Source: a virus
Strand: one strand, 5' to 3'
Length of the DNA stretch: 64,000 nt
IMG/VR virus record: IMGVR_UViG_2932987669_000002
Location: 10,221-74,220 of that record
Below are positions 19,930 to 21,693 of the stretch, one piece after another. The stretch's first letter is position 1. The number at the start of each line of letters is the position of its first letter. A program made the translations under genes and the position numbers. The notes beneath the pieces are model-generated. The model did not search any database, was not told the DNA's origin, and worked only from the letters and a program-made list of their open reading frames with translations.

Positions 19930-20001
19930 TTCCAAGGGCGGGATTCGAACCCGCGTCCTTCCGGTTATGAGCCGGATGCTCTGCCGCTGAGCTACCTTGG
20001 G
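19930..20001 (-). tRNA. tRNA-like gene, anticodon CAT (Met/fMet-like)
   Basis: Cloverleaf CCCAAGG-TA-GCTC AGCGGCA GAGC-A-TCCGG CTCATAA CCGGA-AGGAC-GCGGG TTCGAAT CCCGC-CCTTGGA-A; C1:A72 mismatch; no encoded CCA. Confidence 0.8.
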
Positions 20002-20039
20002 TCAATGAACGGCGATCGCGACCCAGGCGTGACCGCCAA

Positions 20040-20112
20040 TCCCGAGGGCGGGAGTCGAACCCGCAACACTCCGGGTAAGAGCCGGATACTCTGCCAGTTG
20101 AGCTACCTCGGG
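20040..20112 (-). tRNA. tRNA-Lys(CTT)-like gene
   Basis: CCCGAGG/CCTCGGG acceptor stem, TCCGG CTCTTAC CCGGA anticodon arm, GCGGG TTCGACT CCCGC T arm, discriminator A; no encoded CCA. Confidence 0.8.
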
Positions 20113-20176
20113 TTTGGAATGTAAAAGGTCAAGGAGTTTGCGGGCGCATGGCCACGCCATGGCCCGCAGGTGGGGT

Positions 20177-20249
20177 GCCCAAGAACGGGGCTCGAACCCG
20201 CGTCCTCCCGGATGAAGAGCCGGGTGCTCTGCCACTGAGCTATCTTGGG
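20177..20249 (-). tRNA. tRNA-like gene with an 8-nt anticodon loop (CTCTTCAT)
   Basis: CCCAAGA/TCTTGGG acceptor stem, canonical D and T arms, anticodon arm CCCGG-CTCTTCAT-CCGGG. Confidence 0.75.
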
Positions 20250-20261
20250 ACATTCGTGATT

Positions 20262-21602
20262 TCAGGAATCCAACCCGATCAGGTCAAGGTTCTTCAAGTG
20301 CTTCCCCGAAAAGGCACCGATGCGTTTCAGTATGTTGGCCAGGCCGGGATGGCCGACGGCGACGCCGTGAACCAATTCAGGAGTGAAGGTGAACGACACG
20401 GGTTCGTGTGCCGGGCGAGGTGCGACCCAACCTTTGCGGACCGGATCGATGTCGTGCTCGCGACACACCCGTTCGACCATGGTCCGGGTGCACCGGGCCT
20501 TGCCCTCGAAGACTTCCCAAGGCAAAGGCAGCGAGGCCCAAACCGGCGTGTCGCCTTCCAACTCGTTGCCAACCGCGCTGTGGTACCAAACCAAGTCGGC
20601 CGCCATCAACCGAAGGACCTTGCCGAAACACATCTCATCCAAGATGTCTTCGGTGCCCATGGCGTAGTTCAGGGCAATCCAGTGGCTTCGAGCCCGGCTC
20701 CAGGCGCTGGCCAACAGGTTCCACGTACTGGAATCATTACCCCGTCTGACAATCATGGTCCGCCGGTTAATGCTCGATCGTTCCCAGACTTGCTTGAGGT
20801 AACCGGCACAGGTTTCCAAGACCTGGTACCACCGACTCAGCAGGACGCCCTTCTGGGTGTCGGTGACCCGAGCCAGGACGGCAGGCTTGGGGTACACGTG
20901 CCCGATGGCGAACCAGTTGGCCGTTTCACTTGCGGTGCATGCCTCGAACAAGGCCGCGGCGATGCGGTCATAGGCCCGGGTTTGCGGCCTGGCAACGAAT
21001 TCCGATCGCAGGTTGCAGCGTGACACGTAGTACGCGATGAAACAGGCGGTCGCCTCATCTTGAGCGAAGGTCTCGAACAACAAGTCGGTCGTCAGCCCCG
21101 AGTGCCCTTTGTAGACCAGATCGGCGAGTTCCTTGTTCCGCATCAGGCGTTCCAGCTTGGCTTCCATTCGACGAAGGAACCGGAAGCGCTTGTTGTACTG
21201 CTTTTTGGAGATGTCGAGGCCGGCGGCCTTCCGCTGAAACTTGTCGAGTCGATCGTGAAGAAAGCTGTTCTTGCCGAATTCCTTGGAGATCACGCGACCT
21301 GCACTCGTCAGATAGGCACCGACCACCGGCGCTTTCGATTCGTCCTGCCGCGGAAAGGGTTCCAGTTCCGGGAACAGCACCTCGAACAGATCGGCCTTGT
21401 TGGCAAATCCCTTGGGCTCGTGGAAGGTGGCGGACATCGAAGAGTAGTAATGGTAATTCGGGTTCTTCAAAGACCTTTGGGCGGCCACAGCCAAGTTGTG
21501 AACAACCCGCTCAGGGAGGCAGGCGGCGTGCTGATCCAAGATCAACCGGGCGACATCCTCGGGGCGGGGTCTTTGAAAAAGTGAGTCGTAAAGGTCCTGC
21601 AT
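20262..21602 (-). CDS. Uncharacterised ~446-aa protein sandwiched between tRNA-like genes
   Basis: ORF 20262..21614; GGAG RBS 6 nt before the ATG at 21602; no catalytic motif I recognise. Confidence 0.85.
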   Translation of the reverse strand: MQDLYDSLFQRPRPEDVARLILDQHAACLPERVVHNLAVAAQRSLKNPNYHYYSSMSATFHEPKGFANKADLFEVLFPELEPFPRQDESKAPVVGAYLTSAGRVISKEFGKNSFLHDRLDKFQRKAAGLDISKKQYNKRFRFLRRMEAKLERLMRNKELADLVYKGHSGLTTDLLFETFAQDEATACFIAYYVSRCNLRSEFVARPQTRAYDRIAAALFEACTASETANWFAIGHVYPKPAVLARVTDTQKGVLLSRWYQVLETCAGYLKQVWERSSINRRTMIVRRGNDSSTWNLLASAWSRARSHWIALNYAMGTEDILDEMCFGKVLRLMAADLVWYHSAVGNELEGDTPVWASLPLPWEVFEGKARCTRTMVERVCREHDIDPVRKGWVAPRPAHEPVSFTFTPELVHGVAVGHPGLANILKRIGAFSGKHLKNLDLIGLDS

Positions 21603-21621
21603 GATCGTCTCCAAACACTGT

Positions 21622-21693
21622 TACCAGCGGCGGGGCTCGAACCCGCGTCATCCCGGTCCCGAGCCGGGCGCTCTGCCACTGAACTACGCTGAC
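21622..21693 (-). tRNA. tRNA-Pro(CGG)-like gene on the same scaffold
   Basis: GTCAGCG/CGCTGGT acceptor stem (two G-U pairs), GTTC AGTGGCA GAGC D arm, CCCGG CTCGGGA CCGGG, GCGGG TTCGAGC CCCGC. Confidence 0.75.

What the first reader, a model, noticed from the sequence alone, without database searches (positions are those of the whole stretch)
19930..21693. Four same-scaffold tRNA-like RNAs tightly sandwiching an unannotated protein: candidate new tRNA-linked system
Seen: on the minus strand the order is tRNA(CGG), 19 nt, a ~446-aa ORF, 12 nt, tRNA(8-nt loop), tRNA(CTT), tRNA(CAT). All four share nearly the same D arm (G(C/T)TC-A...GGCA-GAG(C/T)), anticodon stem ((T/C)CCGG/CCGG(A/G)), a loop starting CTC and the T arm GCGGG-TTCGA-CCCG, so they look like paralogs diversified mainly at the anticodon. 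None encodes CCA. GC hairpins lie in the spacers (about 20011-20037 and 20140-20167) and upstream (about 21715-21739). Established: phage tRNAs can offset host anticodon nucleases (PrrC, VapC, PARIS AriB target tRNA-Lys or fMet), and bacterial Y RNAs mimic tRNAs and bind Ro60. Inference: one transcript, processed by RNase P and 3' nucleases, releases the mRNA plus tRNA mimics. These could be decoys or replacements for cleaved tRNAs, or ligands of the flanked protein, forming a defence or counter-defence module I do not recognise as described.
Basis: partly seen in the sequence, partly recalled or inferred. Interest (0 to 1): 0.9.

Follow-up and report, generated by a model that had tools for sequence, protein, structure and literature searches.

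The report
Unknown protein with private tRNA mimics
A 446-residue protein of no known family is always encoded next to its own tRNA-shaped RNAs, whose bodies are nearly constant while the end of the anticodon loop varies; this pairing recurs in every locus examined across many bacterial phyla and in giant-phage tRNA clusters, and I found no description of it.

Summary
On the minus strand lie tRNA-like(CGG), a 446-aa ORF, then three tRNA-likes: an 8-nt loop CUCUUCAU, one CUU and one CAU.

About 100 homologous loci were checked (80 species genomes, 17 viral contigs and others). Every one has 1-3 RNAs of the same family directly beside the gene, on the same strand.

**The protein.** It belongs to a large family: over 1280 clusters, and 417 of 185,579 species genomes. 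It has no Pfam, NCBIfam, PADLOC, PHROG or PDB match. It is basic and almost entirely helical.

**The RNAs.**
- They form a cloverleaf resembling tRNA-Lys(CUU), with strong covariation.
- The core is over 90% identical across phyla.
- The loop starts with CUC in 142 of 149 RNAs.
- The remaining 4-5 loop bases switch freely, giving 7-, 8- and up to 13-nt loops.
- Position -1 pairs with position 73 in 77% of RNAs.

**The cassette.** It is about 1.6 kb, single-copy, patchily distributed and has no conserved neighbour. In huge phages it sits inside tRNA arrays, near Thg1 and RNA-repair genes.

**Function.** Not shown. My best guess (0.35) is a dedicated protein-RNA pair that acts in conflicts over tRNA anticodon loops. 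I found no description in the literature I could search.

The scan had noted the same pair once before in another genome (e1-2496654), without follow-up.

The parts
21620..21694 (-). Upstream tRNA-like RNA of the family. It has a 7-nt loop CUCGGGA (reads as Pro CGG) and an 8-bp acceptor helix (-1:73 paired).
   Evidence: ARAGORN. Rfam tRNA, 57.9 bits. Family model R1, 79.9 bits. Helix length. An upstream copy is unusual: among the genome loci it is seen only here and in Acanthopleuribacter pedis, though several viral loci also have one.
21608..21612 (-). GGAGA ribosome-binding site, 5 nt before the ATG.
   Evidence: Read directly from the sequence.
20262..21602 (-). Gene for the 446-aa protein P0001. 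It is basic and almost entirely helical, and belongs to an uncharacterised family.
   Evidence: Translation. No Pfam, PHROG, NCBIfam or PADLOC hit. Family size. AlphaFold2 model with pLDDT 95. No PDB fold match.
20177..20249 (-). tRNA-like RNA with the 8-nt loop CUCUUCAU (CUC followed by UUC).
   Evidence: ARAGORN 'cttc'. Rfam, 56.8 bits. R1, 85.5 bits, the top hit in the genome. The same loop type recurs in 11 unique family RNAs.
20140..20167 (-). GC-rich hairpin in the spacer between the 8-nt-loop RNA and the CUU RNA.
   Evidence: Folding gives -24.5 kcal/mol, z -3.99 against shuffles. Its function is unknown, and it is not followed by a U run.
20040..20112 (-). tRNA-like RNA with the loop CUCUUAC (reads as Lys CUU). 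It is the only CUU-anticodon gene in the genome.
   Evidence: ARAGORN. Rfam, 64.6 bits. R1, 67.1 bits. Genome tRNA census.
19930..20001 (-). tRNA-like RNA with the loop CUCAUAA (reads as Met CAU). It has a C1-A72 mismatch.
   Evidence: ARAGORN. Rfam, 71 bits, with the 1-72 mismatch marked. R1, 81.6 bits.

Best explanation
This is a self-contained cassette of about 1.6-1.8 kb. It encodes a protein together with that protein's own tRNA-shaped RNA partners.

**The RNAs.** They descend from a tRNA-Lys(CUU)-type gene. They keep a nearly invariant body and the first three loop bases, C32-U33-C34. Only the next 2-4 bases are free, so each RNA imitates the anticodon loop of a chosen tRNA. The commonest imitations are Lys, Gln and Glu, followed by Pro, Thr, Ser, Asn and Arg.

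**Proposed mechanism.**
1. Gene and RNAs are made as one transcript.
2. The RNAs are cut out like tRNAs.
3. The basic, helical protein binds or chemically acts on the constant face (body plus CUC).
4. The variable loop bases set the specificity.

**Proposed role.** I think the pair works in conflicts over tRNA anticodon loops. The RNAs would serve as stand-ins or decoys that anticodon-directed nucleases or toxins do not handle like normal tRNAs. The protein would be their dedicated handling or maturation factor. Large phages would use the pair alongside their own tRNA sets and tRNA-repair genes. Bacteria would use it as an accessory.

**What is shown and what is inferred.** Shown: the obligate linkage, the RNA anatomy, the autonomy of the cassette, and the phage tRNA-array context. 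Inferred: co-transcription, processing, physical binding, the action at CUC, and the conflict role.
For: **Linkage**
- Every one of 80 species loci has 1-3 family RNAs immediately downstream on the same strand: 31 loci have one, 47 have two and 2 have three.
- The viral loci and the divergent Micromonosporaceae branch have them as well.
- No other gene is conserved next to the cassette.
- Between related carriers, homology starts about 52 nt before the ORF and ends about 47 nt after the last RNA.
- Between the window and A. pedis, homology is limited to the ORF and the RNAs.

**RNA**
- The cloverleaf is supported by covariation: 97.6% of cells paired, score 0.599 against 0.195 for shuffles, 0 of 500 shuffles as high.
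- The core is 90-95% identical across phyla, while the protein is only 45-50% identical.
- The loop starts with CUC in 142 of 149 RNAs. Loop lengths are 8 nt (78), 7 nt (59), 9 nt (8) and 6 nt (4).
- The same acceptor stem carries many different loops.
- In 8-nt loops, the base after CUC is U in 59, G in 18, C in 1 and never A. This matches wobble-base usage in real tRNAs.
- Lys, Gln and Glu types make up 66 of 137.
- The Micromonosporaceae RNAs have 12-13-nt loops that still begin with CUC.

**Protein**
- Median pI is 9.2, with many conserved Arg, Lys and Trp residues.
- It has a confident but unmatched fold.
- An AlphaFold DB relative is labelled 'RNA ligase domain-containing' and carries an extra N-terminal 165 residues.
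- Klosneuvirus-type giant viruses have structural relatives.

**Context**
- In huge-phage contigs the gene lies inside tRNA arrays. Nearby genes include Thg1, RlaP, HAD_SAK_2, cREC and RNase T.
- Here it lies in the accessory arm of a prophage.

**Redundancy**
- Phage arrays L086 and L089 hold a canonical Gln(UUG) in addition to the CUC-UUG RNA.
- This genome has canonical Pro(CGG), Glu(UUC) and Met tRNAs elsewhere.

**Precedent**
- tRNA-cleaving defences hit Lys, Thr and Asn tRNAs.
- Phages answer with variant tRNAs (PMC12409363, PMC11464382, PMC10264068, PMC11555353).
Against: - No expression, processing, binding or phenotype data exist. No RNA run could be listed.
- The protein has no recognisable catalytic or RNA-binding domain, so 'handling factor' is inference from linkage and composition alone.
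- Chromosomal copies are not visibly in defence islands. Their neighbours are ordinary metabolic genes.
- No cultured phage in a 50,697-genome collection carries it.
- The protein tree follows phyla fairly well: 17 label changes against a minimum of 13. That fits an old accessory function as well as it fits an arms-race cargo.
- A decoy would have to compete with a very large tRNA pool.
- The 7-nt-loop members look like competent decoders: U33 is present and position 37 is a purine in 85%.
- The cassette supplies the only CUU-anticodon gene in this genome, so plain decoding is not excluded for some members.
Confidence: 0.35

Rival explanations
1. Guard or abortive-infection system. The tRNA-shaped RNAs are baits that imitate the tRNAs most often attacked or handled by invaders. 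While intact, they hold the protein (a latent toxin or signal generator) in check. Cleavage, modification or capture of the bait releases the protein.
For: - The cassette is compact, autonomous, single-copy and patchily distributed, like many defence systems.
- The loops are hypervariable on a frozen scaffold.
- The bait repertoire is enriched for Lys, Gln, Glu, Thr and Asn.
- It is prophage-borne here.
- There is precedent for protein effectors restrained by nucleic acid, in retrons (my own knowledge, plus PMC12673091).
Against: - There is no hit to any PADLOC model.
- Neighbours are not defence genes.
- tRNA-like RNAs are expected to be very stable.
- The protein has no recognisable toxin or nuclease domain.
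- Its placement inside phage tRNA arrays next to tRNA maturation genes suits a pro-translation role better.
Confidence: 0.2
2. RNA repair or remodelling pair. The protein is an enzyme that cuts, trims or helps rejoin anticodon loops at the constant CUC. One possibility is conversion of 8-nt-loop pro-tRNAs into 7-nt-loop working tRNAs. Another is steering a ligase to broken loops, with the linked RNAs as its substrates or cofactors.
For: - The homologous domain occurs in an AlphaFold DB entry labelled 'RNA ligase domain-containing protein', which has an extra N-terminal 165 residues.
- Viral neighbours include Thg1, RlaP, HAD_SAK_2, cREC and RNase T, which are RNA-repair families (PMC7824862).
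- One chromosomal neighbour is RtcR.
- Removing the C of CUC from an 8-nt loop would leave a canonical U33-NNN loop (my inference).
Against: - I could not retrieve the fused protein to confirm the fusion, and the database label may not describe the matched part.
- No nuclease, kinase, phosphoesterase or ligase motif or fold was found.
- 7-nt loops, which are 40% of the RNAs, need no trimming.
- No ligase is linked in the chromosomal cassettes.
Confidence: 0.13
3. Real decoding tRNAs with a private factor. The 7-nt members would be C34 isoacceptors. The 8-nt members would read triplets with a bulged C, or read four-base codons ending in G. The protein would charge, modify (at C34) or deliver them. 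Together they would form an orthogonal add-on to translation.
For: - All members pass the tRNA model, and the tertiary-interaction nucleotides are intact.
- U33 is kept, and position 37 is a purine in 85% of 7-nt loops.
- The CU-NNNN-RN loop format is the one used by engineered quadruplet decoders (my own knowledge).
- An 8-nt-loop tRNA that reads triplets exists in yeast mitochondria (PMC3113583).
- CCA is encoded in 15 of 149 RNAs, against about 2 expected by chance.
- The only CUU gene of this genome is in the cassette.
Against: - One acceptor stem carries many anticodons, with no matching identity elements.
- The -1:73 position is paired in 77% of RNAs.
- Stop-reading loops occur (CUA, UCA, UUA types).
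- 12-13-nt loops and a D-loop hairpin in one branch cannot decode.
- Position 37 is a purine in only 64% of 8-nt loops.
- There is no excess of GAAG +1 junctions in the window: 5, against 5-7 for control quadruplets.
- The protein resembles no synthetase, GTPase or modification enzyme.
Confidence: 0.1
4. Type III-like toxin-antitoxin pair. The protein would be a tRNA-directed toxin, and the adjacent RNAs would be its mimic antitoxins.
For: - The layout is a single protein plus tandem structured RNAs.
- The cassette is mobile.
- tRNA mimicry would suit an inhibitor of a tRNA-directed enzyme.
Against: - The RNAs follow the gene without an intervening terminator, whereas known type III antitoxin repeats precede the toxin gene.
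- The RNAs within a locus differ from each other.
- tRNA-shaped RNAs should outlive the protein, which is the reverse of a labile antitoxin.
- There is no ToxN-type or other toxin fold.
Confidence: 0.07
5. Nothing special. These would be ordinary accessory tRNA genes of a mobile element that happen to flank an unrelated or selfish (homing-type) ORF.
For: - Phage tRNA clusters often contain selfish ORFs, and HNH genes are present in the viral loci.
- The RNAs score only modestly above the genome's own tRNAs with the family model: 67-85 bits against 66 or less.
Against: - Linkage holds in all of about 100 loci across more than 10 phyla, with strand and position conserved.
- The RNA core is over 90% identical across phyla.
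- The CUC start is invariant, and loop lengths are unusual.
- The gene is single-copy in each genome checked.
- The protein is under strong purifying selection, with a mean column identity of 39% across phyla.
Confidence: 0.04

Closest known systems
Phage-encoded variant tRNAs that escape tRNA-cleaving defences (T5 tRNA-Lys/Thr/Asn against PARIS AriB; anticodon-loop variants; PMC11464382, PMC12409363, PMC10264068, PMC11555353)
   Same: - Both are tRNA-shaped RNAs carried by phages or prophages.
- Their anticodon arms depart from the host consensus.
- Lys, Thr and Asn types are prominent.
- They can be redundant with existing tRNAs.
   Different: - Those are ordinary tRNAs with 7-nt loops and need no dedicated protein.
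- Here one scaffold carries interchangeable loops of 6-13 nt behind a fixed CUC.
- Here the RNAs are always tied to one unknown protein.
- The cassette is mostly chromosomal.
Ro60 (Rsr) with Y RNA / YrlA, a bacterial protein-tRNA-mimic particle linked to RNA repair operons
   Same: - Both pair a protein with a co-encoded RNA that mimics tRNA.
- Both are loosely associated with RNA-repair genes, and both occur in some large phages (PMC7824862).
   Different: - There is no TROVE domain.
- YrlA scores 28.9 bits against a gathering score of 69.
- YrlA lacks a normal anticodon arm, whereas these RNAs are full cloverleaves whose variable part is the anticodon loop.
Private tRNA/enzyme pairs (TilS with tRNA-Ile2 CAU; ProRSx with tRNAProX in Streptomyces, PMC10404621 as named in an earlier scan note)
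   Same: - Both pair a dedicated enzyme with a tRNA that has a critical C34 or an unusual anticodon, and the two are inherited together.
   Different: - Those enzymes belong to known folds.
- Those tRNAs have a single anticodon and a normal acceptor end.
- Here the protein fold is unmatched, and a single RNA lineage cycles through many loops.
+1 frameshift suppressor tRNAs (sufB2, sufJ type) and the yeast mitochondrial tRNA-Thr1 with an 8-nt loop (PMC3113583)
   Same: - The anticodon loop is 8 nt on an otherwise normal cloverleaf.
   Different: - Those are single mutant or lineage-specific tRNAs with proper identity elements.
- Here the 8-nt loop is the majority state of a cross-phylum family.
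- Here there is no frameshift-dependent gene signal, and a protein partner is obligatory.
Type III toxin-antitoxin systems (ToxIN)
   Same: - Both pair one protein with adjacent tandem structured RNAs in a small mobile cassette.
   Different: - The gene order is reversed.
- The RNAs are not identical repeats.
- There is no ToxN-like fold.
- The RNAs are tRNA cloverleaves.

Membership tests
Canonical tRNA (Rfam RF00005) | Cloverleaf with conserved tertiary nucleotides, scoring above the family threshold | tested here: met
   The four window RNAs score 56.8-71 bits against a gathering score of 29. Covariation in 131 family RNAs supports all four stems.
Canonical tRNA (Rfam RF00005) | A 7-nt anticodon loop with U33 and a purine at position 37 | tested here: not met
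   Only 59 of 149 family RNAs have 7-nt loops; 78 have 8 nt, 8 have 9 nt and 4 have 6 nt. One branch has 12-13-nt loops. In the window, 3 of 4 RNAs have 7-nt loops.
Canonical tRNA (Rfam RF00005) | A 7-bp acceptor stem with an unpaired discriminator base | tested here: not met
   Position -1 pairs with 73 in 115 of 149 RNAs (77%), using all four Watson-Crick types. The background is 37% at -4:76. In the window, only the CGG RNA has the eighth pair.
Canonical tRNA (Rfam RF00005) | Acceptor and discriminator identity elements that match the anticodon | tested here: not met
   The same acceptor stem (for example UCUGAUA in Bacteroidota) carries at least 11 different loops. N73 does not track the anticodon.
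Ro60 / Y RNA (YrlA) particle | A TROVE-domain protein and an RNA matching the YrlA model | tested here: not met
   Pfam finds nothing, even at E up to 10. YrlA scores 28.9 bits against a gathering score of 69, covering only the tRNA-like part.
Type III toxin-antitoxin (ToxIN-like) | A ToxN/AbiQ-type endoribonuclease preceded by identical short RNA repeats and a terminator | tested here: not met
   There is no Pfam or PADLOC hit. The fold is helical. The RNAs lie downstream of the gene and are not identical to each other.
Known anti-phage defence systems (PADLOC-DB 2.0) | The protein matches a model of a known or candidate defence component | tested here: not met
   Four family members were scanned. 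Three had no hit; the fourth (P0022) gave only a chance-level match at E 0.02.
RNA ligase / RNA repair systems (Rnl, RtcB, Pnkp-Hen1, RlaP) | A ligase, kinase, phosphoesterase or nucleotidyltransferase domain in the protein or in a conserved neighbour | tested here: inconclusive
   The protein itself has none, and there is no conserved chromosomal neighbour. However, an AlphaFold DB relative carries the label 'RNA ligase domain-containing'. Viral loci also hold Thg1, RlaP, HAD_SAK_2 and cREC.
+1 frameshift / quadruplet-decoding tRNAs | An 8-nt loop of the form CU-NNNN-RN | tested here: met
   78 of 149 RNAs have this form, including window 20177-20249.
+1 frameshift / quadruplet-decoding tRNAs | Genes that need the matching four-base reading | tested here: not met
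   GAAG junctions that join two open frames of at least 100 aa number 5 in the window, against 5-7 for GAAA, GAAC and GAAT. This is a crude test on the window only.
+1 frameshift / quadruplet-decoding tRNAs | Aminoacylation and use by the ribosome | not testable with these tools
   No RNA or charging data are available.

The most novel reading that the evidence does not exclude
The cassette is an anticodon-programmed ribonucleoprotein. It would consist of a protein of a new fold that uses interchangeable tRNA-shaped RNAs as 3-4-base 'address labels'. These labels would let it act on one chosen codon, tRNA species or tRNA-handling enzyme. That would amount to a new class of RNA-specified system built on the tRNA scaffold, one that includes natural 8-nt-loop (four-base) readers.
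Probability: 0.12. Interest if true: 0.95.

Novelty: categorically new. Interest (0 to 1): 0.86.

Why it matters
If the pair works together, it adds a widespread protein-RNA system to tRNA biology. It is present in hundreds of species across more than ten phyla, in huge phages, and, by fold, in giant viruses. It has so far escaped annotation: the protein is called 'hypothetical', and the RNAs are called tRNA or tRNA-undetermined.

- It offers a natural, compact experimental handle of about 1.6 kb on how cells and viruses fight over anticodon loops.
- It provides a large natural collection of 8-nt-loop tRNA bodies, which is of interest for code expansion.
- It provides a confidently modelled protein with no match among solved structures and a likely RNA ligand, which suits structure determination.
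- It warns that 'tRNA-Lys(CUU)' and 'undetermined' tRNA calls next to this gene should not be counted as ordinary decoders.

Tried and rejected
- **Protein family and structure searches.** Pfam (E up to 10), PHROGs, NCBIfam, PADLOC and a PDB sequence profile returned nothing usable.
  - The UniRef label 'ZorC EH domain' on one homologue was not reproduced.
  - Foldseek against PDB found nothing at E 0.001 or better.
  - VIA-align against 48,161 chains gave a best Z of 6.5 for the whole model and 5.9 for the C-terminal half. All matches were generic helix bundles.
  - ESM Atlas searches by features and by shape found nothing.
- **The RNA-ligase-labelled relative (A0A0G3GV89).** A sample of 401 Actinomycetota genomes and a search seeded with the divergent subfamily did not surface it. 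The fusion is therefore unconfirmed.
- **Expression.** Two run searches listed no RNA data, only partial DNA holders from coral metagenomes.
- **Third component.** All-against-all clustering of flanking ORFs in 98 loci, plus Pfam scans of 118 chromosomal and 93 viral neighbours, found no conserved partner.
- **Transposon idea.** The gene is single-copy in 6 genomes, so it is not a proliferating element.
- **Quadruplet recoding.** There is no excess of GAAG junctions in the window.
- **Promoter and terminator scan.** It was uninformative. The TTACATT motif before two of the RNAs is not enriched in the window.
- **Family covariance model.** It separates the window RNAs from the genome's own tRNAs by only 1-20 bits. 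It therefore cannot be used alone to census the RNA family.
- **Literature.** Seven full-text searches found no description.
  - Burroughs and Aravind 2016 (PMC5062991) is not held in the library and could not be checked.

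
Full report
**1. What is in the window**

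ARAGORN and Rfam agree on four tRNA-like genes on the minus strand:
- 21620-21694, loop CUCGGGA
- 20177-20249, 8-nt loop CUCUUCAU
- 20040-20112, loop CUCUUAC
- 19930-20001, loop CUCAUAA

Between the first and second lies one ORF, from the ATG at 21602 to the stop at 20262, encoding 446 aa. A GGAGA sits 5 nt upstream of the ATG. None of the RNAs encodes CCA. Only the hairpin at 20140-20167 is stronger than shuffled sequence (z -3.99).

The cassette sits in the minus-strand accessory arm of a myovirus-like prophage. That prophage has a terminase with an intein, plus portal, Mu-F, sheath, tape-measure and baseplate genes at 28.8-64 kb. The cassette lies downstream of a 4292-aa Rhs protein.

**2. 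The protein**

P0001 has no hit in Pfam (even at E up to 10), PHROGs, NCBIfam or PADLOC, nor to any PDB sequence. Yet it belongs to a large, well-conserved family:
- More than 1280 clusters at 90% identity.
- 384 representatives at 50% identity.
- Relatives in 417 species genomes of the 185,579-species collection.

Identity is typically 45-50% across Acidobacteriota, Planctomycetota, Bacteroidota, Actinomycetota, Cyanobacteriota, Chloroflexota, Myxococcota, Pseudomonadota and others.

AlphaFold2 gives a confident model (pLDDT 95, pTM 0.92). It is almost entirely helical, with a small C-terminal hairpin. Neither the whole model nor its conserved C-terminal half matches a solved structure beyond generic helix bundles. 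Foldseek found nothing at E 0.001 or better, and VIA gave best Z scores of 6.5 and 5.9.

The only structural relatives are uncharacterised predicted proteins:
- An entry labelled 'RNA ligase domain-containing protein', with an extra N-terminal 165 residues.
- A Naegleria-type accession.
- Proteins of the giant viruses Edafosvirus and Yasminevirus.

The family is basic (median pI 9.2), with many conserved Arg, Lys and Trp residues. N295, K328 and W392 are invariant.

**3. The linkage**

This is the decisive result. All 80 species loci fetched around homologues carry family RNAs directly downstream, on the same strand. Thirty-one loci have one, 47 have two and 2 have three. The median spacer between tandem RNAs is 11 nt.

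In the loci where ARAGORN found nothing, the family covariance model finds the RNAs. One of them, L052, is a chimera of its two tandem RNAs.

A divergent Micromonosporaceae branch of the protein has, 41-44 nt downstream, a 106-107-nt version. It has a hairpin inserted in the D loop and a 12-13-nt 'anticodon' loop that still begins with CUC. Viral contigs show the same pairing, sometimes with the RNAs upstream as in this window.

No other gene is conserved beside the cassette. Between related carriers, nucleotide homology begins about 52 nt before the ORF and stops about 47 nt after the last RNA. Between this window and its nearest relative, A. pedis, homology covers only the ORF and the RNAs.

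The gene is single-copy in all six genomes checked. Its distribution is patchy:
- 1 of 10 genomes in the same family.
- 0 of 30 genomes in the same class.
- 2 of 401 sampled Actinomycetota.

It also occurs on 7 large plasmids, but in none of 50,697 deposited phage genomes.

**4. The RNA family**

In 131 aligned RNAs the cloverleaf is paired in 97.6% of cells. The covariation score is 0.599 against 0.195 for shuffles, and no shuffle of 500 reached it.

The body is over 90-95% identical between phyla. It comprises D arm AGCUCAGYGGYAGAGC, anticodon stem ending CGG/CCG, variable loop UGGAC and T arm GCAGGUUCGAGCCCUGC. This is far more conserved than the protein. It resembles tRNA-Lys, and the commonest loop, CUCUUAA, is the loop of tRNA-Lys(CUU).

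The loop starts with CUC in 142 of 149 unique RNAs. The rest of the loop varies in both sequence and length: 8 nt in 78, 7 nt in 59, 9 nt in 8 and 6 nt in 4.
- Read as anticodons, the 7-nt loops are C34 types: CUU 20, CUG 10, CGG 8, CGU 6.
- In the 8-nt loops the triplet after CUC is UUG 13, UUC 11, UUU 9, UGA 8 and GUU 7. Its first base is U in 59, G in 18, C in 1 and never A, as at real wobble positions.
- Lys, Gln and Glu types make up 66 of 137.

One and the same acceptor stem carries many loops. The loop therefore changes on a fixed body, and identity elements do not follow it.

Position -1 pairs with 73 in 77% of RNAs, using all four Watson-Crick types, against 37% at -4:76. The usual form therefore has an 8-bp stem without a free discriminator base. 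CCA follows in 15 of 149 RNAs.

The family model scores the four window RNAs highest in the genome, at 85.5, 81.6, 79.9 and 67.1 bits. Ordinary tRNAs follow from 65.9 bits downward, so the family is a close offshoot of real tRNAs.

**5. Context that bears on function**

In huge-phage contigs the gene sits inside long arrays of ordinary tRNA genes: 17 upstream in L086 and 11 in L097. Nearby genes include Thg1, radical-SAM enzymes, RlaP, HAD_SAK_2, cREC, RNase T and HNH. Aravind and colleagues assign several of these families to tRNA and RNA repair in jumbo phages (PMC7824862).

Two of these arrays already hold a canonical Gln(UUG) beside the CUC-UUG RNA. This genome already has canonical Pro(CGG), Glu(UUC) and Met tRNAs. 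The RNAs are therefore not simply filling decoding gaps, although the CUU gene here is the genome's only one.

Chromosomal neighbours are ordinary and unrelated from genome to genome. RtcR is adjacent in one case. The protein tree follows phyla fairly well.

**6. What it is not**

- **Not ordinary tRNAs.** Loop length, the paired discriminator, missing identity logic and the obligate protein partner all argue against it.
- **Not Ro60/Y RNA.** There is no TROVE domain, and YrlA scores 28.9 bits against a gathering score of 69.
- **Not a type III toxin-antitoxin.** The gene order, the non-identical RNAs and the fold do not fit.
- **Not a listed defence system**.
- **Not a proliferating transposon.** The gene is single-copy.

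A crude test for genes needing GAAG four-base reading in the window was negative.

**7. How it most likely works**

Shown:
- An obligate, co-inherited pair of a protein and tRNA-shaped RNA.
- A frozen body and CUC, with a free loop tail.
- An autonomous cassette.
- Presence in phage tRNA toolkits.

Inferred:
- One transcript, with the RNAs released by RNase P and 3' processing.
- The basic protein binds or acts on the constant face.
- The variable bases define which tRNA is imitated.

I commit, at about 0.35, to a role in conflicts over anticodon loops. In this reading the RNAs are stand-ins or decoys that anticodon-directed nucleases or toxins do not treat as normal tRNAs. The protein is their dedicated handling or maturation factor. 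This fits the known biology of tRNA-cleaving defences and phage replacement tRNAs (PMC11464382, PMC12409363, PMC10264068, PMC11555353).

The rivals are:
- A bait-and-effector guard system (0.2).
- A cut-and-rejoin or repair enzyme with these RNAs as substrates (0.13).
- True decoders, including four-base readers, with a private factor (0.1).
- A type III-like toxin-antitoxin (0.07).
- Coincidental tRNA genes (0.04).

**8. Novelty and limits**

Seven full-text searches found no description of this pair. The nearest recent work on bacterial tRNA mimics treats other RNAs.

One key survey, Burroughs and Aravind 2016, could not be read. The ligase-labelled relative could not be fetched. The protein domain may therefore have been catalogued there without my knowing.

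An earlier first-reader note of this scan (e1-2496654) saw the same 443-aa protein with two tRNA-like genes in another genome. It was not followed up.

No expression, binding or phenotype data exist. Everything about function is inference.

Noticed in passing
L105:4505-4610 and L106:4565-4671 (Dactylosporangium aurantiacum, Longispora fulva): The Micromonosporaceae branch of the protein family is followed by a 106-107-nt tRNA-like RNA. It has a 7-bp hairpin inserted in the D loop and a 12-13-nt 'anticodon' loop starting CUCAC. ARAGORN misses it; the family covariance model finds it at 42.8 bits.
   Followed up: partly
L052:4315-4391 (Chryseobacterium indologenes J31): The single RNA here is a chimera. 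Its 5' half comes from the first tandem RNA and its 3' half from the second, so the acceptor stem no longer pairs. This looks like a deletion by recombination between the two tandem copies.
   Followed up: partly
own genome, G000:C1 (window 20040-20112): ARAGORN finds 66 tRNA genes in the 11.79-Mb genome. The only CUU-anticodon (Lys) gene is the cassette member; the canonical Lys gene is UUU. There are also compact tRNA clusters at C1:7081584-7081990 (five genes) and C1:5343638-5344160, and an odd call 'tRNA-??? (cg)' at C1:1510942-1511017. None of these was examined.
   Followed up: no
window 28811-31558 (+): This 915-aa ORF, upstream of the portal gene, carries an intein splicing domain and a LAGLIDADG homing-endonuclease domain. 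It is probably the large terminase interrupted by an intein.
   Followed up: no
L086:1-7531 (IMG/VR contig of 329.8 kb): A huge-phage contig carries 17 ordinary tRNA genes, then two radical-SAM genes flanking the family gene and its two CUC-loop RNAs. The canonical Gln(UUG) and Arg(CCU) genes coexist with CUC-UUG and CCU family RNAs.
   Followed up: partly
BFVD entries A0A3G4ZSE3 (Edafosvirus) and A0A5K0U9D9 (Yasminevirus); AFDB A0A6A5CA55: Giant viruses of the Klosneuvirus group, which are known for large translation gene sets, have proteins with the same predicted fold (E 1e-13 to 1e-12, 16-17% identity). So does a protein of an organism not shown by the tool, a eukaryote (Naegleria) by my reading of its accession. 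I could not check whether tRNA-like genes lie next to them.
   Followed up: no
window 3440-16318 (+): A 4292-aa ORF with Big_5, carboxypeptidase-regulatory-like and RHS repeats lies about 4 kb from the cassette. The GC content drops from about 0.66 to 0.43 at its 3' end.
   Followed up: no
window 24777-25115 (-): This is the only small minus-strand ORF near the cassette with any family hit: phrog_37844, unknown function, E 4e-7. All the other ORFs scanned between 17.6 and 25.6 kb have no Pfam or PHROG match.
   Followed up: no
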